From assembly GCA_036172245.1 (NCBI GenBank), contig JAYWIR010000016.1:2170001-2234000 (forward strand): DNA of 64,000 nt, in the 5' to 3' direction. The DNA comes from Raillietiella orientalis. Taxonomy: Eukaryota. The position numbers and the translations under genes are program-made. Under the pieces are notes generated by a model. It was given only the letters and a program-made list of their open reading frames with translations. It was not told where the DNA came from and made no database searches. This document shows, piece by piece, positions 9,761 to 40,260 of the stretch; the stretch's first letter is position 1; each line of letters opens with the position of its first letter.

Positions 9761-10132
9761 CAGTCGGCGTCGGTACCTTCTCTCTGGGGGGGCTGCTACG
9801 TTCCCGAACTGTTCCAGGACTGCGGTGGTGGCTTCAGCGAACCGTAGAAGAAGCTGGCCTTCAGCTCTCTTCTGCACCAGGAGGACACCGCCCATGACCT
9901 GCTACCGCGCTTCTTCGCGCTTGGTGGACCATTGGCAGGCGCGGTGATCACGACAAGATGTCGCGTCTAGCCATGGTCACGAGTTGCCGCGTCTTGGGGA
10001 CGCCAGCGCAGTCCTGGACCAGCCGCCAAGGGAGGTCACCCGCGTGGCTGTCGCCTACATGAGGGCAGCTACGAGGTGATACCAGAAGAGGAAGTCAAGG
10101 CGGAGATCGACTTCATCCAGCACCGGTTCTAG
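9761..10132 (+). pseudogene. Possible decayed coding fragment of unknown family
   Basis: GC3-rich codon runs in shifting frames: GCYVPELFQD...EP*KKLAFSSLLHQEDTAHDLLPRFF, then DASAVLDQPPREVTRVAVAYM, then GSYEVIPEEEVKAEIDFIQHRF*. No family recognised. Confidence 0.2.
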
Positions 10133-12660
10133 GAAAAAGAAACGGCCAAAGGCAGTGACCTCAGTCCCTCCCCCTTTTGTTTATTTATTTACTAACCCCT
10201 TCCATCCGTTCCGGACCTCTGGAATGGCCGACCTGCGTTGTCGGCGCGTCCTCTCTTGAAACTTCATTTTGTTTTCCTCCAGGAATCTGCATTTCCGACT
10301 TGTTTGCCCATTTTCCTTGCTTAGTAAGCGTCCCAGCGTGACCGGGGTTACCGATTTCTTTCGGAGGTCGAGGTGACCAAGCCCACAGCATTTCTCGGGG
10401 AAAGCAGGAAGGGTAGCGGGGGGAAGGAAGGGAGGGAAGACGTTTGCTTTATGGGCACACCCACTGCCGAGTCTACGGACTGCTACAGGGGCAGGAATTT
10501 CACCTGCATCGCGTCTCCAGAGCCAGCCGCGGGACCAGAACGTTCATGGGTTGAAAGGGCGAGGCAAGGAGGAAGCGCCCTCCCCAGTCCTCCTCGGAGC
10601 ACCCGGAATGCTCGCGGCCGATCGGGTGTCAGGTTCAGCTGGCGCCGCAGGAGGAGCATGAGGTTCCCGCTTCGAGTTCCGGGTGGGAGGAACGGGTCGC
10701 CGCCATATCCGGGCCTCAAAGAGAGGCGGCGGCGGTGGCCGCCGCGCTGTCGCCTCGCCCCCGTTCCGCGCAATTCGCCTCCGTGAGCGCCCCGCTAACG
10801 AGACATATGAAATGCCTTCGCAAGATCTTCGGCTCCCGGTACTCTCGCGTGGCCCATGCCGTTTTTATTGTGGTTTCGTGAGCTGTTTGGAGCGGCCGTC
10901 TTCGTGGTTACGGGATCCCGCCGTTCGCGCTGCCGGAGCCGTCACGGTAGCCATCGGCTCATCTTGTCATTTCAGTCGATAACCGCAGCAATACTGGAGC
11001 CAACTGCAGCGTTTTCATTTCGGAGAAAGAAGAGGGAGAGGGGGATAGAAAGGGAGGAGGAGTTTCCCTTCCTCCTCCTGACCACAAGGTCGGCGAAGCC
11101 GTCTCTGAGAACTCGTGAGACCGGCGAGGAATCGGCGGCTCTCGTTCCACAGCGCCTTTCCGGAGCAGCGGGCAGCAGTGGAAGTTCCCTCCCGGTCCCT
11201 GCGCGGCGGCAGCACTCGTTCCGGAAAACCACGACCGCTCCCCATCCCACACTACCCCACCTTCCGGGATGCGCGGACGCACCCGTTGTTTCATAGTCCG
11301 CGGCCAAACTGGAGAGAGGGAGCGGCTCCTCCCCAGGGACGAGGGACTCGAGGCGAGTGAAGCGCGCGACCTGGGCCGGGAAAGAGTCCGTAAGGCAGGA
11401 GGTACCACCTGACCGCGCGCCTCGAAGAGGACCACCCTCTTCCCCTGCTCTAAGTCGCGCGCGCACTGAGCGTCTCCTCCCTTGACCGCGGGCCGCCGCT
11501 GGCCGTCGTCGATAAGAAGGAAGGACCTCCCGGAGCAGCGGGTGAATCCCTGTCCCACACACTCTCCTCTTCCCGCCGGAGCGAGCGCCCCGTCCGAAGG
11601 GGGTGGAGGGGCGAAGAGGCGCTGTCGCCGCCTCACATCTGGGCAACATCGAGTCGCCATGGAGTTTCCCCCTTCCCTGGACTCTTTCCTTCCTTGACGA
11701 CGCCTCTTCCCTCCGAAGAATCGCGGGGGAGGGGAGAGGAGAAAGAGAGGGAAGAAGGAACGAAAGCAGGAATAACCGACCGGCCGGCATCTCCCCTCGG
11801 ACCTCCGAGGGCAGACGCTCAGAGATGAAGAGATCTTTGCCCGCCTGGCTCCATGGGGGCGGTCGGAGTCGGCATCTCTGGAAAAACGGGGAAAGGGGAA
11901 GAACGAGCGCTTTACCTCTTCCTGTGCGAAAGGAGGTTCCGGCCGAACGTTCCCAGGAAAGCCAAGGGCTGACCCTCCTCGCATGTCTGCAGTTGGCCCA
12001 CTTCTTTCCCTCTCCCTCCCTCGCGCCGAATGCCCATCATGCCACAACCCCCCATTTTCCTTCGATCCTGTGACCGAGGACGATGCCGGCTTGAGCTGGA
12101 GCCTCAGGGTTCTTCCCCTGAGCGCTGGCCGGGAGCAGATGGCAACTCCAGTCCTCGCGGCGTCTCACGAGGTGCGGAGGCGCTAGCACCCCTGACAGCG
12201 TGAGCTGAAACGAAAGCGGAAGTAAAGTCCGGCCACAATTGCCCGAGAGACCTTGCGCGTTCTCGAAGGCAGGTCAGAGGTCAACGGACGCCGATTCAGA
12301 AGGAGATCCTAGGGCAGGTCCTCCTGGGACACCACTTGCCCAGAAGCTCCCCCGGGATACGCGCCTCCTGACGAGCAGGCAAGGCCGCCTCACCGGAGAA
12401 GCGGGAAAGGAGAGGGGAAGAGCAGGTGACTCACCGCTCACCTCTCCGGAAAAGGTCAGCGGATGGTCCGGAGCATGGCTGGCTGGAGGCGGCTACAAGG
12501 AGTGGCACACGCAGGGATGGGGCAACCTCTTCGAGAAGAGGGGCCGCGCCCGCCATCCTGCGACGGTTCCTCCGTGTCAGATCTGGAGTCCTCCCCTACC
12601 CGGAGACAAGGGTTCTGCATGGAGTCTGTATTGCCGAGGGGGGCCAGGGGTGTCAGGGGG

Positions 12661-13179
12661 TCAGAGCATGAGCACGGGAGACGGAGCCGCCGCGCCGTCT
12701 CCGCGGCAACCCTCCGAGCATCGTCGGGGGCAGCGGGACTTCTTCTCGCAGAGGGCGGCCAGCCTGGGCGGCCGGCAGACCTGGTAGACCAGCACGGCAA
12801 GGCCGAGCAACGTCGCCAGCAGCCCCGGGCCGAGGAGGAGGTACCGCTCGAAGGGCAGCAGGTCGCTCTTTGTGGCTCCCGGGATGGTGATCACCAGACC
12901 GAGGAGGAAGACAAGGGCGCCAGCCTGCTTCGTGGAAATGCGGAGCTCCGACCCTCCCTGAGGGCCTGCCGACCTCCGCCGGCCCTCTGCCGACAGGCGG
13001 TCGGCCGAGCTGCACTCTGACGCCCGCTTGCCGCTCCCCGCGCTCCCGGCTGGCGAGGACGACCGCGCGGCAGCGGCGGCCACCACCAGCTTCATCGGAA
13101 AGGCGCGCACCTTCCCGGACGCCGCCAGCTTCTCCCTCTCCCGGCGGATGGCCGCGGCTGACAGGGCGGCTCCGGTTAT
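12661..13179 (-). CDS. Terminal coding exon of uncharacterised two-transmembrane protein (paralog A)
   Basis: Strong acceptor (long pyrimidine tract ...ctttctctcttgcag|) at 13180, phase 0. Reads ITGAALSAAAIRREREK...AGALVFLLGLVITIPG (TM1)...YLLLGPGLLATLLGLAVLVYQVC (TM2), Cys/basic tail, TGA at 12663-12661. Similar to the ORF at 17123-17845. Confidence 0.7.
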   Translation of the reverse strand: MTGAALSAAAIRREREKLAASGKVRAFPMKLVVAAAAARSSSPAGSAGSGKRASECSSADRLSAEGRRRSAGPQGGSELRISTKQAGALVFLLGLVITIPGATKSDLLPFERYLLLGPGLLATLLGLAVLVYQVCRPPRLAALCEKKSRCPRRCSEGCRGDGAAAPSPVLML

Positions 13180-16100
13180 CTGCAAGAGAGAAAGAAAGAC
13201 AAAGGGAGGGTGTGAGGACAAGGAGGAAGGGAGGAGGAGGAGGATGAAAGGAAAGGGAAGAAGAACCATCGCTCCGTATTTTCGGACCGATGACCTTCGG
13301 GATAGCCTTCGCCCCTCTACGCCGGGATCGCACGCCATCTGGAGAGCAGCGCTCTCTCTCTCCAAGCCACGCACGCCGGGAGGCATCGCCGACCTAGAGG
13401 CGATGACCACTCCAACCAAGCTTATCGGACCAGAAAGGGGGTGACCCTTCTGGCTCGCTGCCACGGGAAAGTCAGAGGGAGGGGGAGAAGCGCGGGAGCC
13501 ATTAGGGCGGAGAACAGAAGCGGACGGCAGCGGCGCACAGCACAAAGGGCGCATCGAAGGGACTCAGGATCTGCCTCCTCTGAACCTTAGGGTCGGGAAG
13601 GAGGGGGGAAAGAGGGGAAGCTGCGTCGTGCGTTGCCTCCACTTAGGAGGGGGGAGGGACACGATTGCAGAGCAGAGCAGCAGGCACGAACCCCTGGCCG
13701 AAGTGCGCTGGCACCGGCCGAGGGACTGCGCGCGCAGATGCCTATGGAACCGGAAGAAACGACCGGTCGGCTGGACCGGCCTTGGATACCGTCGGAAGCC
13801 ACGACCTGCCGCGTGACCTCCCCCGTGGCACAGGGACAGAGGAGGGTAAGACGGAGTGGATGAGACGCTCGCGGCGTCCTCAGTCTCCAGGCCAGCCAAC
13901 AGAGGGCAGGATGAGACGTTGCCTTCGGAGACTCTTCCATCCCATTCCCAGGTCCTCCTCCTCTGCTGGATCTGCTCCGCGATCCCGTTGCCGCTCCCCT
14001 TTCTTGCATGTCGGAAAGGAGGAGGCAGGAAGAGGCGTTCATCCGGGAGACCGGAACGTTTTCCTGGAGACGCCCCGTGGATGGCGAGCAGAGGACTCCT
14101 GACCGGCTCCGGGAAGTCCGAATGTCCTAGGCAGGAGGAGGGGGAGCAAATTCCTCTCCTACCCTCCTGTCCGGCACCTCATCGGGAGGACAGCAGCAGG
14201 GGCAGCCCGGAGGGGCGTTTGCCGTGGGACCCGGAGGAATATCGGACGGCAACGTGTCAGGGAAGGAGGGGGAGGCGAGCAGGAAGGTCGGCCGCTCCGG
14301 GCGCGAGCGACCGGATCCTCCGAGAGATTTGCCGTGGAACCGCAGAAAGAGCGCGAACCGGGATGATTCCGCCTGCCGCCGCTGACGCTGATGACGATCG
14401 CTGTTCCCGCATCCATCCGGCCCGCAGAAGCGAGGAGCTGAAGCGGAAAGCGATCCACGGTAGGAGGTCGACGACCCAGAATTTTCTGTCCGGCAGAATT
14501 TTTCGGAGGGATCGATCCGAATCTCCTCCCCTGCAGAGGCGGGAAGAGGAAGAGCGGGAAGGGAGGGAGCACTCCCGAGCACGACACGCGGGGAACGATC
14601 CTTTATCGATTTTCCTCCTGTTCCTCTTGGAAGCCCAAGGAAGAGCAAAGAAGCCGAGGGCAGCTGCACAGAGAGACTTCGACGCGACGAGAGGGAACCG
14701 AAAATAGGCGGGAAGCGCGCCCTCGCGGATGGTATCCATGGAGACACCGCCGTTGGACCCGCCCTCCGAAAAATAAGCTCGCCGGAAGAAGATCTCGAGA
14801 TCGAAAGTTCCGGCTGGGGAGATGCAGAGCACATCATCATCGGTCGCACCTCCTTGCAGACAGGCAGACGCTCCAGGTTCCCCGAATTCTCGGGACCCCC
14901 CCCCCTCTCTTTCTCTCTCTCTACCACTTCGAATCCGGTGACCGTTGAAGAAAGTAATGGGGGTTGGCTGGATGGATTCTTCAGCCGTCCTGGCTTTTTC
15001 TAACTTTCCTCTGAGAGGTGACTCGATCCCGGTGACGTCTAAGGAAGGGCGCTTCAACAGCGGCACGATGCACCCCCGCGCATGCGCGGGGCCTCCCTGC
15101 TGGTCGAGCCGGGCAAGCAATCTCAACGTCAAAGTAGCACGCAAAGCGAGAGATCAAAATGGCTTCAAACCTTGAAATGAATCATCAAAACACATCCATG
15201 AAGGGACGCAGTTTTTGCTGCAGAAGTCTCTCTTTCACGGCAGGATGGCCACATGTGTGAAGTTGACGAAATTTCGCACGAAACTCGCCTTTTCACAACA
15301 GGATTGCCACATACGTAAAGCGAATGAGATGTCGACGACCAGCTGGCAGCTGGCCATCGACATTTCATTAGTGCTTCCATTTTAAAACGCATCGTCCGTA
15401 AGTTCAAGTTGATCCCCAGCTAGAGCAAGCAATCGATTCGATTCAAAGCGGAAGATAGGCTGATAGGATAACGTGGGACAGGGTAATTCCGTGGGACTCT
15501 GACTGAAAGATTTTCTCGAGTGTGATTCGTCGAGTCAAGCACGAAAGTCACAGTCCTCTCAAAAGAACACTCCCGTTTTAATCATTGGGCATCCGGAAAA
15601 CCCCGAATTATAAGGAAAGGGGTCTATCTTCTCGCGTCACATCTTTTAAAAATTTCAAGCACGAAATATCGATTTCCCATACTTCGCACTATGGGAACTG
15701 TTCGGTTCTTCCCAAGGCATCGTGGATGAGAAGCTTGATGCTACTTTACAGGAAACAGTGATCTCTGAACACAAAATCTGATGGTTTTCTTGAATGCTGA
15801 ATCCACGCCAACGCCTTTCGCGCGCTCCGGATTTCCTACACACAAGACTGTCACTTCCCTCCCAAGGGCGGGATCCTCGGGAATGCAGGCAACCTTCGAG
15901 GAAGCCAGAGGCGCGAGGACAGCTTGCGCGCTGGGAATCAGAACGGAGATGAGAAAGGGACTGCAATTTTGGACGTCTTGCGGGAGATTTTCTTGAAGCA
16001 GGGAAACGGAGCCACCATTTCCTTGCCTACGGCTTGAAACGGAAAACGTGTTGACCGCGCGGGCGAGGGTTCGCCGCGGACTGCTGCACAGTCGCGAGGC

Positions 16101-17122
16101 TCCGGCAGAAAAGCAGGACGCCAACTTGCCGAAACCGAAGAAACGCGCCTTCCAAGAACGGGCAGCCAAGGAATGCTTCTGTGCATCACCACGACAGAAT
16201 GAGAAGGAGGAGGAGAAGAAGAAAACGCATTCAAAAAAATCAATTTTATTTTTAATCTGCCACTCTTCGAAGCATGAAGATGTCAAATGAGGTATCACTG
16301 GAATGGTTTAGAACACAGTTTAGAGGATTGTCGTTTCTCCAGAAGCTCGTTCCACCAGCCTCCTGGCATTCCGTGCTCACAGATGAAGCCGCGAACATAA
16401 TGCGGAATGCATCCCGAAGATGCTTTCATCCTCGCACGAAAATAAGAGTCGGGTGCTCAAGGCACACTCACGTTGACTTCGATGTCTCCCATGCCTGCCC
16501 CGGAAGGACAGCACGATACTCCCGTGACCCGTTCGACACAGCACGAGGAAGGCAGAGAGAAGCGACGTCCGGGCCGTGCAACAGAAAGTGCAAGCATGAA
16601 AATTAGGAAAACACGCGCACACATACACAGTCGGTCCAGGGAGGAGGTTTCTGCCCAGACCCCCGACCAATTCACTCCCAAAAGTCATGCATTACAATCG
16701 AAAGCGAAATTGGACCGATCGCAACTTCCTCTGCGGCTCGAGATCGCCCCCTTTGCCTGAGAGAAGGGGGGGGGGGGAATGGGGTGAGGTGTCAACAGTT
16801 TGGGCGTGTGGTCAACTCATGAAGCAAGCCCGGCAAACGGTGCTCGCAAGCTGGCAACGATCGGGTGCGGATAGATTCCCGGAAGCTATTCGTGTAACCA
16901 AGCAACCAATCCCTCAGCAGGGAGGGCACACTTTGTGAAGAAAAAAAAAGGGTCACCACCGTTCAGTACTGTCCTCAGACTGTTCCCCTCTTTCGGATTA
17001 CCCTCCACGGTTGCCACCGTCACCCCAGTCCTCCCCTCTCCCTCCCCCCTCCACCGCATCTCGAGGGCACATCTTCGGCACCACTCCGCAGCCATAACGT
17101 CTTCTGCAACACTGGACCCATC

Positions 17123-17845
17123 TCACAACACAGTCTGCTTCTTGTATTCGCCAGTCAGCAAAACCACTTTTTCATTATCGGTCCCTCTGTCGTCCAAGAG
17201 GCAGTGCACGCCGTTCTGATCCGGAAATGCCGCTGCTGCGTCGCCGGACTGCGCAAGCTGTGAGGATGAGGGCTTCTTCGAATTGCATGATGGCGCAGGA
17301 GACGGTTCCTTCTTGCTCTGCCTTGTCTCTTTCGAAAATGGGTGCGGGTCGTCTGCGTGATCTTGCAGCACGCCCTCCATTTTGCTCTTCTTGCCTGTCG
17401 GCAGCGTCAGCCCCCTCTCCATGTTCACCAGCCGCTGGGAGTGCGACAGCTGCTTCTTCACGTACTCGGCCAACTTTTTCTCCTCATCGTTCGAAACCAT
17501 CTTGTGGATGAAGACGAGCAGGCATCCGATGAGCGACAGGAGGATCCCGACTCCCAAAAGTTCATCCCACATTTTACCGGATTCGTTTGCTGGAATGATT
17601 CTTCCTATGGTGATTATGATGCCCAGGACGATGAAGATCACGCCGAGGTGGAACATGGTCAAGTCGCTGACCACTTTGGTGTCAAGGAGGGATTTGGTTT
17701 GTGCGCGAGAAAACATCTTTGTTCGGCCATCCTTGCTCAAAGAATGCTTCCTGTTGCTGTTGCGCAAGCTGCTGTTTCTTCTGGCGTTTATCTCCCTTTG
17801 CCGTCTGATCGCCAGCGCGGACTGCACCGAGTGAAAAGCAGGCAT
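17123..17845 (-). CDS. Uncharacterised two-transmembrane protein (paralog B), 240 aa, single coding exon preceded by a splice acceptor at 17901
   Basis: MPAFHSVQSALAIRRQRE...MFHLGVIFIVLGIIITIG (TM1)...LLGVGILLSLIGCLLVFI (TM2)-HKMVSNDEEKKLAEYVKKQL. Protein-like composition, unlike neighbouring shadow ORFs. Acceptor ctttgtgtttcag| 55 nt upstream of the ATG. Confidence 0.8.
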   Translation of the reverse strand: MPAFHSVQSALAIRRQREINARRNSSLRNSNRKHSLSKDGRTKMFSRAQTKSLLDTKVVSDLTMFHLGVIFIVLGIIITIGRIIPANESGKMWDELLGVGILLSLIGCLLVFIHKMVSNDEEKKLAEYVKKQLSHSQRLVNMERGLTLPTGKKSKMEGVLQDHADDPHPFSKETRQSKKEPSPAPSCNSKKPSSSQLAQSGDAAAAFPDQNGVHCLLDDRGTDNEKVVLLTGEYKKQTVL

Positions 17846-19730
17846 CTTCAAGACACGGTTTCTGAGAAGACTGCTCCTACTGTCTTCCGAGGGTCCGGAT
17901 CTGAAACACAAAGATGGAATTACACTGAGTGACCGCTGGCTCTCCCCGACTCAACCAAGTATCAACGGAGATGTGACCAACCAGCGCCGTGAACCATCGC
18001 GGGTGGGACTGAACTCAAGGGCACGTGACCAGGGAATGCAACACGCGGCATCTCTGTGCAAGTCTGAACAAACAGAGAGCTGGGGAGAAGTCAGCAAAAT
18101 GCTCCCATACACCCCTGCCCCCTCTCACATCCCTTGATCTCAACGCTACCATCCGTAGGTAATAAAAGAGTACTTCGTACTACTGAAGTACTTGATATTT
18201 TTCTGGAGTTCCTTTAACCCCTAATGCTCCAGCGTGGAGAAAGCCCTACGAAGGCGCGTAGCGATCTTTGACTTATGGATTCTGCATCTTGGAAGTTTCC
18301 TTGAACTCCCCATCAGTGTGAACTTTCTGACCTTGCCGCTAGCGTTTTGCTGACGCACCTCAATCCCGAATTCATCAGATGATCTGCGCCACAAGGAAAA
18401 CTGGATGAAGGAATGGAGAGGAATTGGGTAGGTGGGCGGAGGGGAGGGGATCGCTTAAAAGTGGGCCTTTTGCAAGACAACTGGATTGGAGGGCAACGAT
18501 TTTGAAATCAGATTAAGTGAACTGCATGTTTCATTCGAAAGAAACTTCGCTTCCTCCAGGTTTCCATCCTCGGCCCTTTTGTAAGCCGCTACCTGAACAT
18601 CTACATTCCTGCTGCTCGCCTTCCGTTTCCTTTCGCGTTTTAAGGGCTTTTTTTTTTTTTTTTTTTTGTCGCCATGCAGTTTCCAGCTTCGAAAGAGCCC
18701 TATGGCACCGGGAACGCTTCCGACACGGAAACTCGTCGCGAAAACAAACCGCAGGTATCGGAGGACGTCTTGCATCGTCAGCAGCCATGACTGTGCCCGT
18801 GAGGAAGGACACGATCACAGCTCACAGTTTGCACTGAGCAGTAGGCTCAAACTCCCAGTTCTGTTGGCTGGGGTGGTCGTCAGCACCTCTCCACCGCCCT
18901 CATGTGATCCAGATGGAAGGCGCTTCAAAACTCGTAAGAGGTTCTGCGCCCTTGAAACCCGTCGAGTCTTCTTCTTGTCATTTCCGCCAAGATACTTCCC
19001 GAAATTCGGAATCAGGTGGCATGCCAGTGCTAGCCGATGGCTTGATAGACAGTGGAAACACAGACGCAGAAAACCTCGCAAATGCAAAGGAAATCCACAA
19101 TAAATCCCTTCCCCCATGCACAAAATCCAAGGACATGTTCCCTGATAAGTTCTGCCTTCTTCATGAACCAACATATCCCATTCGAGAAAAAAAGCCGCCA
19201 AAGAACGATAGAGAATTCCATAAATAAACTGAACTGATGAAAGATCTGATAAAGCATTCATAAACAAGAAAGGCACAGCCATTTCGAAAAAAATTCTTTA
19301 TGATTCCTCACAAGGAGGAGATTTTGCTCCCCACATTAATCCGGCGCACCATAAGCATCATAAAGGCATTTTGAACAGATCTTTTACTATTATTTTTTGT
19401 TTTTCTATAAGGAATAATGATAAATAATGAGTGTGGACGAGTGGTTAAACGACACAGGAAGACAAAGATGTTTTTACGAGGAACAAGAGAACATCAACAG
19501 CTAACCACGAATCGTTTCCTTGTTCCCTGAAAATCCCCCTGAAGTGCATCCGCTTCCGGGTGATCTGGTTTAGCAAGAGCAATCTATTGCCCACTGGCGC
19601 AAGATGACATCAACTTTCTTGAAACCGTGACAATTTGCTCGCGAACCTTCAATCTTTCAATTCAGCCACGGGGAATCATTTTGTTGCAACAGGCAGCACA
19701 TTCCTTCAAAGTGCACGACGAGGTCACAGT

Positions 19731-21953
19731 GAATGCCCATGTCTCCCATTCGAGGTCTCCACACCCTCAATCTCAACCAATTTACTTCCGCTTTCTGAAG
19801 AGTGGTATACGAATGCTCGAATGAACGCTCCCCACTCCCCAACTATTCGGTTCGTTGTCCTATTCGAGTCGTCGGTGCCAGAGATGGGCTCAAAGAACAC
19901 TGACCGCAAGATGGCAAAACAAAAACTGTTTTTTTCTTAAGCGACATTAAGGTTCGTAAACATGAAACAGCAACCACAGCAAATCACGTTGGAACTAGGA
20001 GCACGACCCCGGCAGTTGGTTGCGTCACCCTTGTTTCTCAATCGGGTCCAACTTTCCTTCTTTGCATTTTGTCATTCGCAGCTTCTTTTTCTCGAGCACA
20101 CTCAACGTATCCTTCATATCTCCTATAAAAACTTTACCTTTTCTTCCTAGCCGCAAACGGATCGAAGGAAGCGCATTTCATTTCATTTTGTTTTTTCGCA
20201 CATCTCTGTGCACGTTTATGGCATTCGTCATTCTCCCGCGTGACGCCTAAGCGCATAACGCATCCCAGCGACATCCCAGGTATCCGTTCTTAATCACTGC
20301 TGGTCCCTGCATGTCTTCCCGCTCGTGCGAGCTTCTTCACGTCGGCACGGACTTTCAATGAGCAACGCGGAGGTGTCTGTGAAGATCTCCACCCTTGACA
20401 TCTCACCATGTCACTTGCGAGAAGGCGATCCTCGCCGGCGTGTTCTTCCCGCCTGCAGGCAAGTCCTTCTGTCAAACCATTTGGCTTTCCTGTTCGGAGA
20501 CACGCATTCCCCGTTAGCAGCAGCGGATGGCCTCCGGTCCGAAGTGTAAATTGGTACGCGCGAGCTGGAGCAGCCACAGCGGCTCACACCGAGGGGGTGG
20601 AGCAGGAAACAAGTGGCGTGCCACCCTGATTGCATCCAGCACCACGAGCCCTTGTTCCCCGATTCTTCTCGGGGCTTTCGACATCCCTTGCCGCATTAAG
20701 CGCCAGAGGACGGAGGACGTCGGTTGCCTCGAGTCCTTGCCATCCACCTTCGCACAAACACACGTTTCCTTTGAAAGGCGCTCCGAATCACCTCACCCTA
20801 CTCTGAAGATTCAGTTCTGCCGAATGGGCAGCGACATTCACAAGAAACGATAAATAAGGCGGACGATCGTTCCGCCCGATTTCGGGGGACCTTTCCAATC
20901 TGCGCACGACTCGACTTTCGTCTTCCTTGAGCTCCTGGAAAGGAGCTTCACCCTTCCCGAGCACCACCTAACATGGAAACAGCACACAAGAGGCGCATAA
21001 TCTGCCCATAATTTAACCGGCAATGGCTTCAACCGACAGCAGTCAAGGCATTCCTGATGAAACATCCTGATGCATGATCCGACGCGGAACCTTCTGGAGT
21101 TAGACCCCATCCCCCCCTAAACGTCAATTTCGCTTGCAGCAGCCCCTCCAGACGGTCGCTTCTCCCACCCATCGATGCGATCCGATGCACATCCGTCCGT
21201 ACACGCGCGAGCTCTTCGCATCGCCAGTTCGGTTGTGGGGAAGCGTGGTTCCACTTTCCCGCCACTTGGAACGAATGCAAACGAGTCCTCAAAACTGCTG
21301 CCCTCCTTGTCCACCGGGCTCGGAAGCACCCAGAAGGGGGCCGCGTCCATGTACCCGTTGTCTGGTGGTGGACAGAAGTAGACTTTCGCTCTCTTCGCGT
21401 TCGTTTGCACGCGAGTCCGTTCAGGGAGGTTGGGTCCCGTGCGACCAAACCAGCACTTCGGCCCTGACCACGCTCGAGCTCCCCGCTCGCGGCTTCCCTT
21501 CGAAACTGCCCGTCCGCGCGTGGTTGCAGGTGCTCGGCAAAAGAACAGTTCAGCCACCGCGTAGCTCTCTTGCGTGCACGGTGCTGTTACCATCTTCCAG
21601 CCGCAGTTCTGCCCTTCCCGGAGTTGGTTTCCATCTGCACGCACGCACTTGCCCCCATGCCGAACTCCGACCTTTGGAGCTGTTCGCGTTGCACGCTGAC
21701 CGTGCCGCCCTTCCTTCCGGCAGGAAAACTTGGGTAGCCGTGGCGGAAGGAAACTGCGGTGCTCATCGCACGAATGTGTTCCCCTGCCACCAGCAGCACT
21801 GGACGTCTTGGATCGGTGACGTGGATGACGATATGCCAGAAGAAGACCTCAAACGAAAGGTCCGCGAATTGAAATGCACTTCTTGCACATCCGCTTGAAC
21901 GTCTCCCCCCCCCCCCGTCTTCCTCCTCCCCCCAAATATCCTGAGCCATGGCA
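19731..21953 (+). repeat. 2.2-kb direct repeat, copy 2
   Basis: Near-identical to 5961-8180; shared sequence starts gaatgcc and ends ctgagccatggca. Confidence 0.97.
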
Positions 21954-23929
21954 TACTCCTTCGTAAGGGTATATGCCCTCTTTGTCTTATGCCACCGCTC
22001 TGCTGGCATCCACTAGGAGCTAGCCTGCCAGTAAGAGGATAAAGCTAAATTCGAACTATTGCTGGATGAGTAAACAAGAAGAAAACATCCGTAATAACGA
22101 GAGTAACTTATTCAGGAAAGGGCCGTTGGAAGAAAAATTGCCGGTACGGTAATCCACACTGAATTTTCATTATCAACTTTTCGATGTGCCACGTGCGTAA
22201 CTGTTGGAGTGGCATCAGGAAGTCTCATAACGAGATGGTTAATCACGATTTCGGAAAACTCCAAACGGCCGCACAAAGAAGCTCTTCGAACCGCACGCGT
22301 TCGGGGCAGCGGCTTCCTCGTAGCTGTTTGAGTTTCAAATGCTTTTCCTGAAGACCGGGAACACAGTTTGCAAATGTCCGGAAACCGTACGGAAGTTCCT
22401 AATTTGATGGAATAGAATTATTCCACGAGGCGATCGTGACAAATTCGATAGAAGTTTCCCTCCGAATGCAAATCGCATTAAGCTACTTTAAAAAAAGAAA
22501 GGGAAAAGAAGAGGAAAAACAAAGAAAAAAAAGACGCGCTTTTGACGTGAACTGAATTGCCGAAATCAGCAACGGATGCTGGTGGGATGAGGTTCTCTGC
22601 AGCTCGTTTAACTAATCCGTGTTGAGGACAAGGGGTTTCAAGATGGCGACTCGGGGGCATTGTTGGAGCGGCGTCTCTTGGCTTGATCATGTGTTCCCAG
22701 TGCCTGTTTTCATCCCAGCGTTGGAAAAATTAAAAGGATCGAAGAAAAAAGAAAGAAAAGAAAAGAAAGAGAAAAAAAACACCAAAACCACCAAATGCTT
22801 ATTTTCCCCTTTGGAGTCACTGATACGCTTTGCAACAATTTTCTTAGCGACCTCGTATGACTATGATATGAGCTACACAGCAGAAATGCAGTCAGTTAAA
22901 ACCTTTCAAACATCGGGAAAACTTTCCAGAGGCGAAAAGCGAGAAAACAATAGGTGAGATTGATCGGAGGGGACGGAGGGGAGCAGATGAAGATGCATTG
23001 CTTTTAGCTGCTGAGGGTATTCTGCGTTCTAACGGAGGATTCCAAGTGAAAGCAGGAGCATGTCATTTACTGCAACGCTTCGGATCGCTTTCCTGGGATT
23101 ACGTCAAAACCGCACTCACGATCTCAAGTATTTCAACAGAGGAAAGAACGCAAGAGTGGGAGTTCCGGCGCGCGAAAGCAGCAGAAATACCTGCGTTCAC
23201 TGTTCCGCTCTTATTGCACGTATTGAGCAGTCGATAAAAGACTTTCCAGCATGAGCTATTGGTGTGCTCGTTCTGAGCTCACGTGAGATCAAAGGGTATT
23301 ATCGAATTTGGCACAAGGGATCGACGCAAGGAACAATTTGCTCCGGAGCCTTCGATCGCCCTGGGTCATCGTTAACTTTACGATGACCCGCGCCTTCTCT
23401 CGGGGTGGAGGTAGAAGTTTGACTGTGATCATTCCTGTATGATGTGCTGGATTTCCTCTTTCCTGCATCCTACTCGCAAAACGCTGCACACCACGTCCTC
23501 TGGGGACAATTCTTCCTTCCTTTCTGTTGCCAGGGGAGGAGCACCCAGAATCAGAGTAGAAGAGCCTCCTTCCTTCATGTTCGATCAAAATCCCGAATAT
23601 CGAAATCTCGAAAGGTCATAAAAAATAAATATATGTGCTTATTACTTATATACATATTTATATATAATAAAGATATATTAACTGAATATTTGAATATCGA
23701 ATTATGAAAAAGATAAGAACGTAGTGGCGACAGTTGAAACTAGTGGAGAAAAATAAAACAAACAAACAAATTAAAAAATGAGCATATGAAAGCGTGGATG
23801 AAACGAGTTGTGGTATCCCTTGCAACACAACTTCAATGGCCAGGAAGGAAGGGAAGGTGGAAAAGAGTCACCACTTTTATTTGTAGCTGTTAACTTTGAA
23901 AACAACGCAGGAATAGATTATGGACAATT

Positions 23930-24200
23930 GCATAATATACTGTGTATATTATGCAATGCATATATATACATATATATATAATATCTCGAAAAACGATCAA
24001 AAAATAAATTTACACGTTTATTATGTATATGTATACATATAGATGGATAGCTAGATTAATATATATATTATGTATGCATATGCACTCATATGCATAATAA
24101 ACATATATAAAAAACACATAGTATATTATATACATGTATGTGTACACACACATATATATATAATATACATTGTTTTTCTATACATACATAATGAACATAC
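23930..24200. repeat. Degenerate (TA)/(CA)-rich low-complexity tract
   Basis: Interrupted tata/cata/caca runs within an AT-rich island in otherwise GC-rich DNA. Confidence 0.7.
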
Positions 24201-27200
24201 GTATTTTTTTTTAATGATCTTTCGAGATTATCACAAACATTTCGAGATTCGGGATTTCTATCCGAGTCCTTCCCTTCACAGGTCTGAGCACACTCCGCAT
24301 CTCAGCCCTTCTCGGATACGCGAGGTGGACCGCAGATGTTGGGCGCGATCTTTCCCGGCACCAGGGGAAGGGAAGACGCAGGGCAGCTGAGCCACCCATA
24401 CGAACTAGCATCCGGCGAAGGAATGGGCCTCCCCACATGGAGCAGCGGCACCTCGCTCTATCCCCTCTGCTGCCACCGCTTCTTCCTCTCTTCGCATCCT
24501 CTCTTTTTTCTTCCTGACCGCTGAGACACATGCGACAGCAGGGATTCTTCCGATCCCAAGGAAGATCTTCGTGCCTAACCGTCTCCACACCACGCGTCGC
24601 CTCCTCCGAAAACCCCAAAGCGGCCATTCTGAAGAGACTCCCAGGGAAGGAAGGATCTCTGAAGTGGAGGAGGTTTCGAGGGGCTGCCGGATCGCTCCCC
24701 TGGGAAAAATCGCGTTGAAATCCCGGATTGGGAAAAGGAAGGAAGAGAAGGAAAGGGGGGGGGAAGGAGTATTCCTTTCGAACAAGCATCCAGTAACCAG
24801 GGTAACTGTCAGGAGGTTTTGCTATTTTCGCCTTCTCCCTTCTGGAAAGAGCCTCCTCCTGTTCTTGTTGCCACGCAGCCGGGAGCAGGAAGCGAACGGA
24901 GGCAACCGATGCTCGCATCGCATCTCGAGCCCACGCACTGCCAGCTGGGAGCAGCTGCGCTGCCCTTGCTCGGAGGCATTTTATTTGCACCGCCTATTAG
25001 CATCGTGTAAATAGGGAGGTCTGTTGGTCTTTCTGTTTACACGAGCCAAATCTGAGCCGCTGCTCCCGAACTCCTCCTTCGTGTTTTCGTCTTCCAGACA
25101 GAAAGGAGAGAGAGCCCCTTCCTGGGCAGATGCGACCTCCCGGCCTTCCTTGTGGCGATTTTTCCTCCCTCCCCTTGCATTCACGGAGAAAGGCGTTGAT
25201 AGAGAATCACTGACAGGAAGCGTGGTGCCTCCAGGAAAGAGCAGGAAACCGGGATGGAGGCAGGGGACCCGGGAATCAATACGCACACACGCAACAGCCG
25301 GGAAGCTCTCTGGTTCACACGGAAGAAGCGGCAAAAGCACGTCCGGAAGCGCGCGTTTCTGATCTTTCGCGAGCAATCAGAGATTTCCTGGTTCGCTGGT
25401 TTCTTGGTCCTGGGGCTGCACGCGGGATTACACCTTGCACACCTTGCGCGCACCTCCTCCCCACTCCTAGGTAACGGAAATTCTCCCTTTTTCCCGATCC
25501 GAACACGGCAAGAACGCCGTGTCGAGTTGGTACCGCACCGCGGCGGTGAAAGCGCTGCCTGCGTGCCATTCGCTGTCGATTTGGAACGCACCAAGCGGAA
25601 TGGGCCGATGCAAATCAAATCTTCAGTCGTTTGGAAGACGGGAGCACACCTTCCCACGGTTTCCTCCGGATCTCCGCGGAACTCCGGAAAACAGCAACGC
25701 GCGCGGGGCTGCTGCTGTCGCGGAGGGTGCGCTCGTCCTCCTCCGTCCTCCGCGCGGATCGGGGTGGTGCTGTCAAGATGGCCCTCCCCTCGCTCTCACT
25801 CAGCGGTTTCGCGGACATCCCGGGTTGCTGCAGATGCTGCTGCCACCCCCTTCCACCCCGCGTACGCGACCGGCGCGTCGATCTCGCAGGATGCAGGTCG
25901 CTAAGCGACTTCGAAGCGCTGTCGATACGAGCGGCATCCGACGATCCGGCGATTGCCACGTGGGCCGGGAACCTACTTTCCGCTGGACTGGGGAATTTGT
26001 TAAACAAATCAACGGACCTTCCTGGCCTACGGCAATCGTTGTGCACGTGCACGCGTTGCCTTGTTCCAGGGACAGTGTGTGCAACCCAAATTGCTGGGAA
26101 GGATGTTGAGACCGGTGCTGGCCAGAAAACAACTCGTTTTCTACGGGGTTTCCCCTTCTATTTTTCACTCTCTCTTTTTGTAGGATTGGCAACAACGGAA
26201 GCCTGGGATAGGAGTTTGTTGGTTGCGTCCTTCTTTCGATCTAAGGTACTCTACGACAAAACTGTTATCGGGAAATATTGCACGTTGACAGGCGCAAGCA
26301 TTTGCATGCCAGTTGATTTTCTTCTTCTTTCTTCCCGTTGCTTACTCCTGTGTGCCTACTCCTTTTCATTTCTTTTGTTCACTTCTCACGATGTTTGGTT
26401 GAGGAAGCTGGTCTTGCGAAAAATGTGAAAAAACACCATGCGAGTAGTGCCCGCCTTTCTGCATCTCGGAAGCAGAAGAACAGTTTTCTCGCTATGAGTT
26501 TCCGGAGGCCGCATTTGGCTCCATTTGTGCATACTGTCCACATAAGTCCGGTCTGTGGAATCACTTTCTCACTTTCCTCAGCATGCGGTGCCAAACAAGA
26601 ACGATCAATCTGTGCAGTGCCTATCGCAAAGATTTTAAACTTTGTTTGCCTGCACTGGCTGTGTCCCACTACCACCAAACTGCGTTTCTTCCCGTCTCCT
26701 ATGCCTATCTCTCGCCGTTAAGCGCCGGGCGTTCCAGATAACAGGATGTGAGGCTCCAGAAAAAAGGTAACTTTTTCTCCAGAGAAAGCGTGAGGAAAAT
26801 CCATTTTTATTTACATTCCGCGTAGTTTCCCCGGCAGTTTATTTCGGTGCTGGTAAACAGTGTGTACAATCTTGTGCTCAGTGGACACTTCGAATTGACA
26901 GTTATCACGACAACCGAATGCACAAGGACCCTGAAGGGCGTCTTCTACATTCGACCCGCTCTCATACTTGGGCGAATTGGGTCCCTTTTTCGGATGCCAT
27001 CGCCTGGTGTTTAGAACCTTTGTTTAGAACACGATTCAGGAAAACGGAATTTCTGCGACGGAAGAAGATCGATGTGCATTAGAAAATTCGGTGCTTCCCC
27101 TGTGCTTGAAAGACTTTGAATCGTCTTGTAATGGACGATGAGGAACGGATTCGTTACTCTATTTAAGCCTTCCACAGCAGAATCTTGGCATTCAAGTGTC

Positions 27201-29396
27201 GCTGCTAATGACCTAGAATGTTTTCGAGGAGCAAACAGCTCTCCTGGGGGCCTTAAAACTTGGTGCAAGCGTGCACTACCTATTTCTGGGGAATGGGAGC
27301 GTAAACCGTGGGTGGGAGCAAGATGGCGAGCTGAAAAAGCCGAAACAAGCACATCAACAGACGTCAATCAAAGAAACACTTCATAATAAGAAAGGAACTT
27401 GTTGCTCAACTCGTTTCTTCTGCTAGGCACAGCAGGGAAAAGAATTCCAGCAGAAATAGCACTCTTCCGTTATTTGTCCGTCCTGATCTCCAGTTCAACA
27501 GAAAGGCAAGGATCGTTCTGAAAAAGTTGCTGTGGAAACAAGAGGGGGAAGGAGAAGAATTAGTTCGCAGCTATCCACGGACCTTCGTGCTGTTGCACAA
27601 ATGGACTGAGTGTGTCTTCCAGTCAGAAAATTTCGTGTTTAGTTCACGTTTCTCCACGAACTCATTCAGAAATTCGCCAAGTCGTCCCCCGGACGGCAAA
27701 TCCTCTGCATCGGAACAACAACTTTCCTCTAAACCTATCTGCTCCTTGCAATTTTCACAAAGGGTGCCATCACACCTTCCGCACAGAGGCTCATCCCGCA
27801 CAGGCATTTTTCTGACGATCTGTCATGAATTTTCAAGATGCCAAAAGAAAAAAAAAAAAAAAAGGAAAAAGAAAAGCCGCAGCTGGCAGACCGAGCGCGA
27901 AGCGGATGTGATCAGAGTTACCACAACAATGTGAAAGCAAAGCGGCGCCATTTGTTTTCGTTTTTTTTTTTTTTTTTTCATTTTCGTTTTGTTTTCTTCG
28001 TGCACGACCGCTAACGAAGGCGAGTTCCTGGGAATTCAGTGCAGCAGGAAGTCACCACACGCTCGCTTCGTGACTGGGAAGTGGTCGGGTGCGAAAACTG
28101 TTGCATCATACGCACGGGGGAAATCGGGACAAGCAACGATAAATGACTTACCTCTTGGTCCGAGGGAACTATGCTTGCGAGTTCAAAAAGTCATGAGCAT
28201 CGGGGAATCCATGCTCTCGTCCCCCGGATTTTCACGTCTTCTGTCCATTTTCCGAGACTGGGGATCAACAAGCGTGAAGATGAAGCACGGAGCGACCGAT
28301 TTGAATATAAAGGCCGTGGACAATCAGCGAGGAATCAATCGCACAACTGTTCCAGTTCGCAGTCCTCTGCGCAGGACACGACTTTTTGCAGAGCTGCTGC
28401 GTCAGTACCTCCCCAAGCTCATTAACTCGGGAGGAGCACTCGATAGAAGATGCTGTTTTCTTGTCAGATAAACATTCTTTGGGTTTTCGACTCGGGGTCG
28501 CTTCGATAACTCTTGATTTAAAGATGGGGCCGTCTTTGGGGGCATCCACGAACACGGCAGTCAGGGGTACCCATGATATACGGAAGCCTATCAACGATAA
28601 TAATGATGAAAATGATCATGATAGTGGTGGTAACGACAGAGATGTGCATTTTCCCATCTCGCTTTCTCAGAAATGTCGAGAAGATCGAAGGATCGAGTCT
28701 GCTGTGCTGTGAGATAGTTTCGGGAGGCTGCATCTTGCGCGCCTCTCCCCGATCCGCTTCTGAGGCTTTCGGAATCTCTCGGACAGCCGAAAGAGAGGGG
28801 GGAGAGGGAGGGAAGGAAAGGGCCTTTTCGAATCTTCCCCTTTTAGAGCAGGTGGAGGACCGACCTGTTCTCTCAGAGGAGGAAAGGGAAAGGCGCTGAA
28901 AGACGTGACCGTCATCCCTTCCTCCCCCCTCTCTCTTTCGCCAGAATGGTGTAAGGGAAACAGAGCGAAGGGGACCTCGTCTCCAGGGAGTTGCTCAGGC
29001 TGCTTGCCTCGAAAATCGTCCGGGTGGCCCGAGAAAAGAGGAAGAAGAGCGAGGCTGCAAAGGTGGTGGCAACCCTGCTCCTGTCGTCTGGAACGTTGGA
29101 ACATGAGAAGGAGAAGAAAACAGTTCCGATAGGTAGGAGGAAGAGGCGAACGTCCTTTGCCTTTGTCCTTTGTCCTTCATGAGAAGGAGAGGAAAAAGGA
29201 CACAAGGGGAGGAGGGGGAGGAATAGGAACCGCCGCTTTTTTCCTAAGTCATTGTCTCGGGGCGTAGCCCTTCCCGCGAGCTGGAGGGAAGATAGCCAGC
29301 CCACGCGGAGGTGCGCTGGCGGTTCCGAGGGAAGGGGAGGGGAAAGGGGCAGAGCATCAGGAGGAGCAATGGGAGGGGCGAGCAGGCTGTACTCAC

Positions 29397-29405
29397 GCTA
29401 GGCAT
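29397..29405 (-). CDS. Candidate micro first coding exon (Met-Pro-Ser) for the two-TM gene(s)
   Basis: Minus strand reads ctccaccATG CCT AGC|GTGAGT: Kozak-like context followed by a consensus donor, phase 0. Joined to 13179 it gives MPSITGAALSAAAIRRERE, which aligns with paralog B MPAFHSVQSALAIRRQRE. Confidence 0.5.
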
Positions 29406-32400: not shown

Positions 32401-33285
32401 TCCACTAGCCAATGAAATAGCACCATTTAGATTTAGATAACCACGAACTTAAATCTGAACCAGTTTAGGAACCAATTTAACTCCCAATGCCAACTTAAGT
32501 ATTGAGATATGTCTGCTGCATGAAACTTAGCATATAATGCTCGTCTCTCATTGACAAACTTGCTTTTTTTTCCAGAAAAAGGAGAACCACCAAGTCTTTC
32601 TCTTAAATTTTCGGAGACTCTGTTTTCTTTCTTCAAAAGTTACTAGGGTTGTATGAAAACAAATTACAACAGAGGAAGGAGTTGATGTTTGAAACATTAT
32701 CTCGGACATGGCAACAATACTTATTCTGCTAAGAAGTTGAAGTACTGGGAACTCCTAATAGAGTTATGCTTTAAAAGCCTCTTCATGATTTCTGTGCAGA
32801 GGATCAAAGAATGCAAGACAAATGCATAAGGATCAATCAAAGTGCCCTTGGACGTCTTGCTCTTAAGATGAAGAAAATGCTACGTAACTGAACCTACTCA
32901 AGCGTAGTATTATGTAATCCAACCACTTCGTTTCATTCCTCACAACAAGGCCTTACTTCCTGATTTAGTGAACATTGGCTTTGTGTAATTACACACTCGA
33001 GTTCTGTAAACTGAAACTGGCTTGAAAAAAAAAAAAAGCGGTAACAGAAAAATTGCAGTCTTTTTTTCTGAAAAAAGGAAACACAGATGGCATTCCCTGC
33101 CCCCTGAAATTTCGGAAAACTTGCAGTGCTTTCAGTTGCGCAGAATCTCAGCTAACGTTCAAGAATGATGTGAGATTTTGAGTCAAGTCGGGAAAAGTTC
33201 AGGTTTTATAGGTGACGACTTCGAAAAGATGGGAAAAAGGATGTGCACGCATAGTTGTTGTTAAGCGTAATGCTTTGTCATAAAG

Positions 33286-39312: not shown

Positions 39313-40260
<948 letters not shown>

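What the first reader, a model, noticed from the sequence alone, without database searches (positions are those of the whole stretch)
12661..29405. One micro-exon, two paralogous terminal exons: possible splice-and-uORF switch
Seen: minus-strand ccaccATG CCT AGC|GTGAGT at 29405-29397. Splicing to acceptor 13179 (16.2-kb intron) gives in-frame MPSITGAALSAAAIRRERE, restoring an N-terminus that matches paralog B, which would then be nested in that intron on the same strand. Splicing instead to acceptor 17900 gives a 10-codon uORF (MPSIRTLGRQ*) ending about 30 nt before paralog B's own ATG. Inference: a single promoter could choose between the paralogs by alternative last exon, with the same ATG acting as start codon for A and as a uORF for B.
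Basis: partly seen in the sequence, partly recalled or inferred. Interest (0 to 1): 0.75.

Follow-up and report, generated by a model that had tools for sequence, protein, structure and literature searches.

The report
Start-less gene copy borrowing an upstream start
Two very different tandem copies of a small, unnamed membrane-protein gene lie here, and the downstream copy has lost its own start codon, so it probably borrows a three-codon start from an exon 16 kb upstream; no RNA data could be found to prove this.

Summary

- **What A and B are.** They are divergent members of an unnamed two-helix membrane-protein family. All five organism names obtained for relatives are pancrustaceans.
- **Family gene structure.** Relatives usually carry the whole protein in one ORF. 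In 10 of 20 fetched loci a strong splice acceptor lies 0-8 nt before the ATG.
- **Copy A.** A keeps an acceptor at that position, the best-scoring of 3996 AG sites on the minus strand. The codon in the family's start-Met column is ATA. The coding signal (GC3 0.86) begins exactly at the acceptor. A therefore needs an upstream exon ending in phase 0 after an ATG.
- **The candidate exon.** The MPS exon at 29405-29397 is the best candidate. MPS before A's isoleucine mirrors MPA before B's phenylalanine. The pattern is expected 0.06 times per window.
- **Cautions.** There are 36 other short ATG-to-donor candidates. A second, apparently unrelated MPS|GTAAGT site exists at 50585.
- **Not tested.** No RNA run was listed, so the junctions and the uORF switch remain untested.

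Verdict: partly supported, moderate interest.

The parts
29397..29405 (-). Coding end of the candidate first exon: ATG CCT AGC (MPS) in ccaccATGc context. It would be the first AUG if transcription starts within about 110 nt upstream.
29391..29396 (-). Donor GTGAGT, phase 0. Its matrix score is modest because the exon side reads AGC.
   Evidence: rank 168 of 3411
13180..29396 (-). Putative 16,217-nt first intron of A, with B nested in it on the same strand. No Pfam family was found in 147 ORFs of 85 aa or more between 4 and 32 kb.
13180..13265 (-). Pyrimidine-rich tract of about 85 nt ending in ttgcag: the acceptor of A and the best-scoring acceptor on the minus strand of the window.
   Evidence: rank 1 of 3996
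13177..13179 (-). ATA (Ile), the first codon of exon A. It aligns with the family's start-Met column, so the ancestral start codon is lost.
   Evidence: Met in 35 of 38 relatives; acceptor 0-8 nt before the ATG in relatives
12661..13179 (-). Paralog A coding exon: 172 codons plus stop, two hydrophobic helices, N-terminal AIRRERE motif. The family's motif after helix 2 is missing.
10864..10869 (-). First AATAAA on the minus strand downstream of A's stop; a possible 3' end of A about 1.8 kb after the stop.
17122..17845 (-). Paralog B: a complete 240-codon ORF with its own ATG, and a typical family member.
17846..17900 (-). B's 55-nt leader after acceptor 17900. It holds no ATG and would carry the tail of the uORF (IRTLGRQ*, stop 17879-17877).
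16245..16256 (-). First ATTAAA/AATAAA on the minus strand after B's stop; the probable 3' end of B, about 870 nt after the stop.
16472..16492 (-). Rival start exon ATG GGA GAC ATC GAA GTC AAC|GTGAGT (MGDIEVN), phase 0, with a better donor score. It lies inside B's probable 3'UTR.
19725..21953 (+). 2229-nt repeat inside the putative intron, 99.55% identical to 5955-8180. The two direct copies bracket A and B.

Best explanation
The minus strand between about 10.8 and 29.5 kb carries two very divergent tandem copies of an unnamed two-helix membrane-protein gene. In most fetched relatives the whole protein is read from one ORF, and in half of the fetched loci a strong splice acceptor lies 0-8 nt before the start codon, which implies an intron in the 5' leader.

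Copy B (17845-17122) is intact and has its own ATG 55 nt after acceptor 17900. Copy A (13179-12661) keeps an acceptor at the family position, but the codon in the start-Met column is now ATA. Its coding signature begins exactly at the acceptor.

A full-length A protein can therefore be made only if an upstream exon that ends in phase 0 supplies the AUG (inferred). The best candidate in the window is the exon ending ccaccATG CCT AGC|GTGAGT at 29405-29397. It would give MPS followed by I..., matching B's MPA followed by F... in length and in the first two residues. That would place B inside A's 16.2-kb first intron on the same strand.

What is shown: the sites, the paralogy, the loss of the start codon and the exon boundary. 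What is inferred: the splice partner. What stays open: whether the same exon also joins B's acceptor, which would make a 10-codon uORF.
For: - **Family.** Searching with B gave 100 hits at E<=1e-3 and 40 at E<=1e-10.
- **One-ORF structure.** In 18 of 20 metagenome loci the match runs from the N-terminal motif onward in one ORF.
- **Acceptor before the ATG.** A strong acceptor lies 0-8 nt before the canonical ATG in 10 of 20 loci: L001, L005, L008, L009, L010, L011, L013 and L015-L017. Several are near-duplicates of each other, so this is about 4-6 independent sequences.
- **A is a member.** HMM E 8.2e-4, second best of 1568 ORFs. A keeps 5 of 5 invariant columns and 12 of 28 columns conserved at 80% or more, and its Ile-1 falls in the Met column.
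- **Coding signal.** GC3 is 0.86 in all of A and in its first 28 codons, against 0.54-0.78 in flanking 150-nt blocks. The stretch just upstream of the acceptor reads 0.57/0.33/0.60. A's periodicity is about 3.9 SD above the window mean.
- **Acceptor strength.** Acceptor 13179 ranks 1 of 3996.
- **The MPS exon.** It is the only MP-giving candidate of 18 or 36. The pattern is expected 0.06 times per window. It is the first AUG after an in-frame stop and has A at -3.
- **Domain.** The exon lies at the edge of the CpG-undepleted domain at 6-31 kb that contains A and B.
Against: - No transcript evidence of any kind was available.
- The donor score is mediocre, rank 168 of 3411.
- 36 alternative short start exons exist, one of them (16492-16472) with a better donor.
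- A second ATGCCGTCC|GTAAGT, also reading MPS, lies at 50585 with no family ORF downstream. Such sites therefore do occur without this function.
- Introns of the neighbouring genes are roughly 50-400 nt, so a 16.2-kb intron that skips a whole same-strand gene and its poly(A) signal would be unusual here.
- N-terminal lengths vary from 9 to 12 residues in the family, so the MPA/MPS correspondence rests on an ambiguous alignment.
- The 5' flanks of the micro-exon and of B's ATG show no similarity.
- A has lost the conserved motif after helix 2 and has no detectable ortholog, so it could be decaying.
Confidence: 0.45

Rival explanations
1. A is spliced at 13179 to a different upstream exon. Candidates are the MGDIEVN exon at 16492-16472, an exon not recognisable from sequence, or a trans-spliced leader. 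The MPS site would then be a coincidence.
For: - The donor at 16472 is GTGAGT with a higher score (7.6 against 5.3) and a good ATG context.
- It is only 3.3 kb from A, closer to the short local introns.
- 36 candidate micro-exons exist.
- A second MPS|GTAAGT occurs, apparently by chance, at 50585.
Against: - The 16472 donor lies 5' of B's first poly(A) signal, so it is inside B's probable 3'UTR, and upstream ATGs precede it.
- Its peptide has no likeness to any family N-terminus.
- There is no evidence on trans-splicing either way. The Rfam scan found no spliced-leader RNA in the window, though such genes would usually lie elsewhere in the genome.
Confidence: 0.22
2. A is a relic: a duplicated coding exon that lost its ATG and is no longer translated, or is used only as a non-coding terminal exon.
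For: - The start-Met column reads ATA.
- The conserved motif after helix 2 is deleted; 7 of the 28 conserved columns are gaps in A.
- The HMM score is only 15.7 bits.
- The language-model search found nothing usable for A.
- Long ORFs are common in this GC-rich block in all frames.
Against: - A strong codon-position GC pattern runs exactly from the acceptor to the stop. It should have faded over a divergence large enough to erase all DNA similarity to B.
- A keeps 5 of 5 invariant residues and two hydrophobic helices at family spacing.
- 172 codons remain open.
Confidence: 0.15
3. A is translated without any upstream coding exon. Either translation starts at the first AUG of the exon (13095, Met29), giving a protein without the N-terminal motif, or it starts at ATG 13269 in an unspliced transcript, adding 30 residues read from the pyrimidine tract.
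For: - 13095 is the only ATG in the first 200 nt of exon A, and it is in frame.
- ATG 13269 is in frame, with G at -3 and G at +4.
Against: - The 28 codons before Met29 have the same GC3 (0.86) as the rest and keep A10, A12, R14, R15 and R17 of the family motif.
- The 30 codons upstream of the acceptor show no coding pattern, 0.57/0.33/0.60, and are simply the acceptor's pyrimidine tract.
- The context of 13095 is weak, with C at -3.
Confidence: 0.13
4. The reader's full model, which extends the best explanation and is not exclusive of it. The same first exon is joined either to A, where its AUG is the start codon, or to B's acceptor 17900, where the same AUG opens a 10-codon uORF ending 31 nt before B's AUG. 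One promoter would then choose between the paralogs and damp B's translation.
For: - Both copies begin with an acceptor and so need a 5' exon.
- Duplication of a lone coding exon downstream of a shared leader exon would give exactly this layout (inference).
- The proximal acceptor is weaker (rank 52) than the distal one (rank 1). That the upstream site of an alternative-last-exon pair is usually the weaker one is my recollection, not a result here.
- The uORF reading is correct.
- Two same-strand tandem copies also occur in L014.
Against: - Untested.
- Other acceptors lie upstream of B: 18400, 18383, 18079 and 18063. B could also have its own promoter.
- A strong-context uORF ending only 31 nt before the main AUG would leave little B translation, so this isoform may be unproductive rather than regulatory.
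- No complementarity was found between the start of the intron and the regions before either acceptor.
Confidence: 0.2

Closest known systems
Cholinergic gene locus (ChAT/VAChT), as described for Ixodes ticks in PMC7524744. I read passages of the abstract, methods, results and discussion.
   Same: A gene whose whole ORF sits in one exon lies inside the first intron of another gene on the same strand. A short first exon (82 bp in Ixodes) is shared, and alternative splicing gives one mRNA or the other.
   Different: ChAT and VAChT are unrelated proteins, whereas here the two would be paralogs. The passages I read do not present the shared exon there as supplying a start codon for either gene; here it would supply the start codon of one gene and a uORF for the other. 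For ChAT/VAChT the sharing was shown by RT-PCR; here nothing is shown.
Alternative last exons made of duplicated, paralogous 3' exons, such as Drosophila lola and mod(mdg4). This is recalled; no call supports it.
   Same: Common 5' exon(s) are joined to one of several tandem terminal exons that are paralogs of each other.
   Different: In those loci the common part encodes a large shared domain. Here it would be three codons, and copy B does not need it for its reading frame.
uORF control that depends on the splice or promoter isoform of the 5' leader. This is general knowledge, recalled.
   Same: An AUG in good context in the leader, a short ORF, and a stop shortly before the main AUG.
   Different: The same AUG would be a genuine start codon in the sister isoform. 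The existence of the isoform is untested.
Small two-helix hairpin membrane proteins of animals (TMEM275-like, TMEM174, TMEM100, PIRT). This is a language-model lead only.
   Same: Size, two closely spaced helices and a basic N-terminal region. The TMEM275-like cluster scored 0.92 by features for B.
   Different: There is no alignment-based support. Pfam gives no family for A or B and only weak generic membrane matches for the 38 relatives, best E 1e-4. The five organisms named among relatives are all pancrustaceans.

Membership tests
Unnamed two-helix family (consensus N-terminus MHAxQSAMAIRRxR...), defined here hits | Significant match to a family profile built without A or B | tested here: met
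   B 1.5e-43 (145.9 bits) and A 8.2e-4 (15.7 bits, collinear over profile positions 12-119) among 1568 ORFs; the next best ORF scores 0.63.
Unnamed two-helix family | Invariant residues (A10, G68, G75, G100, G107 in B numbering) and two hydrophobic helices | tested here: met
   B has all of them, and A has 5 of 5 plus two helices at family spacing.
Unnamed two-helix family | Conserved motif after helix 2 (N-R...E-E..L..Y-V...L) | tested here: not met
   present in B, with H and K in place of N and R. In A these columns are gaps, so A is at best an aberrant member.
Unnamed two-helix family | Start Met in the coding exon, directly after a 5'-leader acceptor | tested here: not met
   A has the acceptor but ATA in the Met column. 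B has F in that column, its ATG three codons upstream, and its acceptor 55 nt before the ATG.
Shared-first-exon nested locus (ChAT/VAChT type) | A single-ORF exon of one gene lies in the first intron of the other, on the same strand | tested here: inconclusive
   This holds geometrically only if 29405-29397 is A's first coding exon. That is not shown.
Shared-first-exon nested locus (ChAT/VAChT type) | cDNA evidence that both mRNAs carry the same first exon | not testable with these tools
   No RNA run was listed, no genome is held, and no identical or close protein is in the collections.
uORF-regulated mRNA | Upstream AUG in good context, a short ORF, and a stop before the main AUG in a real mRNA | tested here: inconclusive
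   The sequence logic holds. The mRNA itself is hypothetical.
TMEM275 family | Alignment-based homology to TMEM275 proteins | not tested
   Only a feature score of 0.92 for B, and no usable hit for A. No TMEM275 sequence was available to align.

The most novel reading that the evidence does not exclude
A start codon has moved across an intron. After a lone coding exon was duplicated, the downstream copy lost its ATG (now ATA, directly after the conserved acceptor). It is rescued by a three-codon ATG-bearing end of the shared leader exon 16 kb upstream. The same AUG is then a uORF for the nested upstream paralog, so one promoter and one AUG serve two paralogs in opposite ways. B's contiguous MPA-F may be a fossil of that spliced junction.
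Probability: 0.2. Interest if true: 0.6.

Novelty: new variant of a known kind. Interest (0 to 1): 0.4.

Why it matters
If confirmed, this would be a compact natural case of three things at once.
- A gene surviving the loss of its start codon by taking an AUG from its leader exon.
- A tandem exon duplication turning a two-exon gene into a pair of alternative last exons, with one paralog nested in the other's intron.
- One AUG acting as a start codon in one isoform and as a uORF in the other.

It also matters for annotation. A gene finder that demands an ATG in the coding exon would miss A, or extend it into the pyrimidine tract, as some database models of relatives appear to do.

The family itself has no Pfam model, and none of the names obtained for its members in the look-ups gives a function. 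Without RNA data the locus remains a well-founded gene-model hypothesis, not a demonstrated mechanism.

Tried and rejected
- **Whole genome.** None is held.
- **Word-indexed protein search.** No hit for B, for A, or for a TANGO6 piece tried to place the organism.
- **Earlier findings.** Nothing by place, by sequence or among relatives.
- **Pfam.** Nothing for A or B, for 147 ORFs between 4 and 32 kb, or beyond weak generic matches for 38 relatives.
- **Language-model search for A.** No usable hit.
- **Third paralog in the window.** None found by HMM, motif or BLASTP.
- **Second MPS|GTAAGT at 50585 as an alternative first exon.** Rejected. It has a poor ATG context and sits in an AT-rich, CpG-poor region. 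It appears to be the 3' end of an open 77-nt exon of another gene in which this ATG is out of frame; that is my reading. TANGO6 and RPS11 also lie between it and A.
- **B as a retrocopy of a spliced ancestral mRNA.** Kept only as a speculation. The 5' flanks show no similarity and family N-terminal lengths vary.
- **Long-range pairing between the start of the intron and the regions before the two acceptors.** The longest perfect complements were 11 and 8 nt, reached by 11 and 96 of 100 shuffles.
- **An acceptor directly before B's ATG.** Score -3.1, rank 2116 of 3996.
- **Bidirectional promoter with TANGO6.** Dropped, because TANGO6's ATG is at 33286, 3.9 kb away.
- **Placing the organism by RPS11.** The best PDB matches score 139-141 bits, against 124.9 for entry 4v6w. 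My recollection is that the top entries are vertebrate ribosomes and 4v6w is the Drosophila ribosome. This is not informative enough.
- **TMEM275 literature.** 7 papers hold the term; 6 were listed, only the listing was seen, and none has it in the title or abstract. A search for shared first exons among paralogous last exons gave nothing relevant.

Full report
**Observation.**
- The micro-exon reads ggactccaccATGCCTAGC|GTGAGT, with the ATG at 29405 and the last exon base at 29397. It translates to MPS.
- At 13179 a pyrimidine-rich tract of about 85 nt ends in ttgcag|ATAACC. The frame then reads ITGAALSAAAIRRERE... for 172 codons, with the stop at 12663-12661.
- At 17900 tgtgtttcag|ATCCGG opens a 55-nt leader before B's ATG at 17845. 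B has 240 codons with its stop at 17124-17122.
- Read from 17900 in the frame set by the micro-exon, the leader gives IRTLGRQ*. That yields the 10-codon uORF, ending 31 nt before B's ATG.
- The leader contains no ATG. The 110 nt upstream of 29405 contain none either, and an in-frame stop lies at 29462.

**What the two ORFs are.**
- Pfam has no family for either, and the word-indexed protein search found nothing.
- An exhaustive HMMER search with B found 100 proteins at E<=1e-3 and 40 at E<=1e-10. The best scored 4.6e-21 at 37% identity.
- I looked up 30 of these hits. The five organism names obtained are all pancrustaceans: an ostracod, Artemia, an isopod, a barnacle and a lacewing. The rest come from unnamed assemblies.
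- The family consensus is an N-terminal MHAxQSAMAIRRxR, two helices with four invariant glycines, and an acidic motif after helix 2.
- A profile built from 98 hits, without A or B, was run over all 1568 six-frame ORFs of the window. It finds B at 1.5e-43 and A at 8.2e-4; nothing else scores below 0.6.
- Added to a 38-sequence alignment, A keeps 5 of 5 invariant columns and 12 of 28 columns conserved at 80% or more. It lacks the motif after helix 2.
- Both proteins have two hydrophobic segments at family spacing.
- A and B are therefore real but very distant paralogs. A is aberrant.

**Is A a coding exon, and where does it start?**
- GC content by codon position in A is 0.69/0.61/0.86. The first 28 codons alone give 0.68/0.64/0.86.
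- In the flanking 150-nt blocks the same third position reads 0.54-0.78 with no consistent pattern. The 30 in-frame codons just upstream of the acceptor, from ATG 13269, read 0.57/0.33/0.60.
- In a window-wide scan for this periodicity, A stands about 3.9 SD above the mean. The other peaks are B, TANGO6 and C2orf69.
- The coding signal therefore begins at the acceptor and ends at the stop.
- With a simple matrix, using recalled frequencies and so approximate, acceptor 13179 is the best of 3996 AG sites on the minus strand.

**What relatives show.**
- I fetched 20 metagenome loci that encode relatives.
- In 18 of 20 the match runs from the N-terminal motif onward in one ORF. L007 and one copy in L014 are split. 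L014 carries two tandem copies on the same strand.
- In 10 of 20 loci a strong acceptor lies 0-8 nt before the canonical ATG, typically ...ccag|gATGCAY. Several of these loci are near-duplicates, so this is about 4-6 independent sequences.
- The other 10 loci have no such site at my threshold. They may be transcripts or may have weaker sites.
- Several database proteins also read through such a site, with ...C-R-M-H-A... before the Met.
- A leader intron ending just before the start codon therefore recurs across several family lineages and looks old.
- A's acceptor is at that place, and A's first codon, ATA, falls in the column that is Met in 35 of 38 relatives.
- A has thus lost the start codon that normally follows the acceptor.

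**Consequence.**
- The first ATG anywhere in exon A is Met29 at 13095. The 28 codons before it look coding and keep the family motif.
- A full-length A therefore needs an upstream exon that ends in phase 0 after an ATG. This step is an inference, but I consider it well founded, at about 0.7.

**Which exon?**
- Scanning the minus strand from 13180 to 40000 for phase-0 ATG...GT exons gave 18 candidates at donor score >=5.
- From 13180 to 33000, restricted to exons of 16 codons or fewer at score >=3, there are 36.
- Only 29405-29397 gives MP. It has three codons, as B has three (MPA) before its residue in the Met column. It also has the best start context.
- ATGCCNNNNGTRAGT is expected 0.06 times in the window and occurs twice. 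Scaled to the 20 kb searched, chance is about 1%. Allowing for the freedom of the search, I would say a few percent.

Cautions on the choice of exon:
- The second match, ATGCCGTCC|GTAAGT at 50585, also reads MPS. It has a poor context and sits in AT-rich, CpG-poor DNA. It seems to be the end of an exon of another gene (my reading), and there is no third paralog in the window. Such sites can therefore arise without this function.
- The donor is only rank 168 of 3411.
- The rival exon at 16492-16472 has a better donor. However, it lies 5' of B's first poly(A) signal at 16245-16256, that is, inside B's probable 3'UTR.
- Neighbouring genes have introns of roughly 50-400 nt.

**Context.**
- The window is a mosaic. 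The bodies of TANGO6 (plus strand, ATG at 33286) and C2orf69 (minus strand, 2.6-3.1 kb) have CpG observed/expected ratios of 0.14-0.25.
- The stretches 6-31 kb, 41-50 kb and 56-64 kb have ratios of 0.8-1.1 and are richer in GC.
- A, B and the micro-exon all lie in the 6-31 kb block, with the micro-exon near its edge.
- No Pfam family was found in 147 ORFs between 4 and 32 kb.
- A 2229-nt repeat (19725-21953 and 5955-8180, 99.55% identical) brackets A and B.

**The switch and the uORF.**
- Both copies start with an acceptor, so both need a leader exon.
The proximal acceptor is the weaker one, rank 52 against rank 1.
- Nothing tests whether exon 1 is joined to 17900. Other acceptors lie upstream of B.
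- A strong-context uORF ending 31 nt before the main AUG would leave little B translation.
- No long-range complementarity was found.
- No RNA run was listed, so all junctions remain hypothetical.

**Comparison with known systems.**
- The closest known architecture is the cholinergic locus. There VAChT's single ORF exon lies in ChAT's first intron and both share a short first exon, shown by RT-PCR in ticks (PMC7524744, passages read).
- Here the two genes would be paralogs. The shared exon would carry an AUG that is a start codon for one gene and a uORF for the other.
- Duplicated alternative last exons (lola, mod(mdg4)) and isoform-specific uORFs are recalled parallels.
- I rate the locus a new variant of a known kind if true.

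**Probabilities.**
- MPS exon joined to A: 0.45.
- Another upstream exon or a trans-spliced leader: 0.22.
- Relic copy: 0.15.
- Internal or unspliced start: 0.13.
- Full switch-plus-uORF model: about 0.2, lying within the first figure.

Noticed in passing
window 46440-46568 (+): Full-length match to Rfam RF02003, group II intron domains D1-D4 (73.2 bits against a gathering score of 49, E 4e-14). It lies in a GC-rich, CpG-undepleted block of a window whose other genes (TANGO6, RPS11, C2orf69) look like animal nuclear genes. No domain V/VI match turned up in 44-51 kb, and the large ORFs around it gave no Pfam match, so no reverse-transcriptase or maturase ORF was seen. It may be an organellar or bacterial DNA insert, or an assembly chimera.
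   Followed up: partly
window 5955-8180 and 19725-21953 (+): Two direct copies of a 2229-nt element, 99.55% identical and with sharp ends. No terminal inverted repeats or target duplications were seen, and there is no Pfam hit. The copies bracket paralogs A and B, so recombination between them would delete or duplicate both genes.
   Followed up: partly
whole window, 1-kb bins: Sharp mosaic of CpG depletion. TANGO6 (34-37 kb) has observed/expected ratios of 0.14-0.23 and C2orf69 (2-3 kb) 0.25, with excess TpG/CpA. The stretches 6-31, 41-50 and 56-64 kb have ratios of 0.8-1.1 and 45-65% GC. This looks like gene-body methylation of housekeeping genes beside large unmethylated domains.
   Followed up: partly
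window 50571-50585 (-): A second ATGCCGTCC|GTAAGT, which also reads MPS before a consensus donor. It appears to be the 3' end of an open 77-nt exon (acceptor near 50654) of an unidentified minus-strand gene in the CpG-poor stretch at 50-55 kb.
   Followed up: partly
window 33286-37000 (+) and 39482-40260 (+): A compact TANGO6-like gene (start MAASEHI..., introns of roughly 50-400 nt) followed by an RPS11 (uS17) gene. The tested RPS11 exon scores 139-141 bits against the best PDB uS17 chains and 124.9 against entry 4v6w. My recollection is that the top entries are vertebrate ribosomes and 4v6w is the Drosophila ribosome.
   Followed up: partly
L014 1316-2298 and 4313-5113 (+); L007 2145-3116 (+): In one metagenome locus two family members lie in tandem on the same strand about 2 kb apart, an independent parallel to A and B. 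In L014 copy 1 and in L007 the ORF is interrupted between the N-terminal motif and helix 1, by a frame change in L014 and by one in-frame stop in L007. This could be a short intron or damage.
   Followed up: no
window 9600-9900: A codon-like GC periodicity (contrast 0.24-0.26, among the top windows) with no recognisable ORF product or Pfam match.
   Followed up: no
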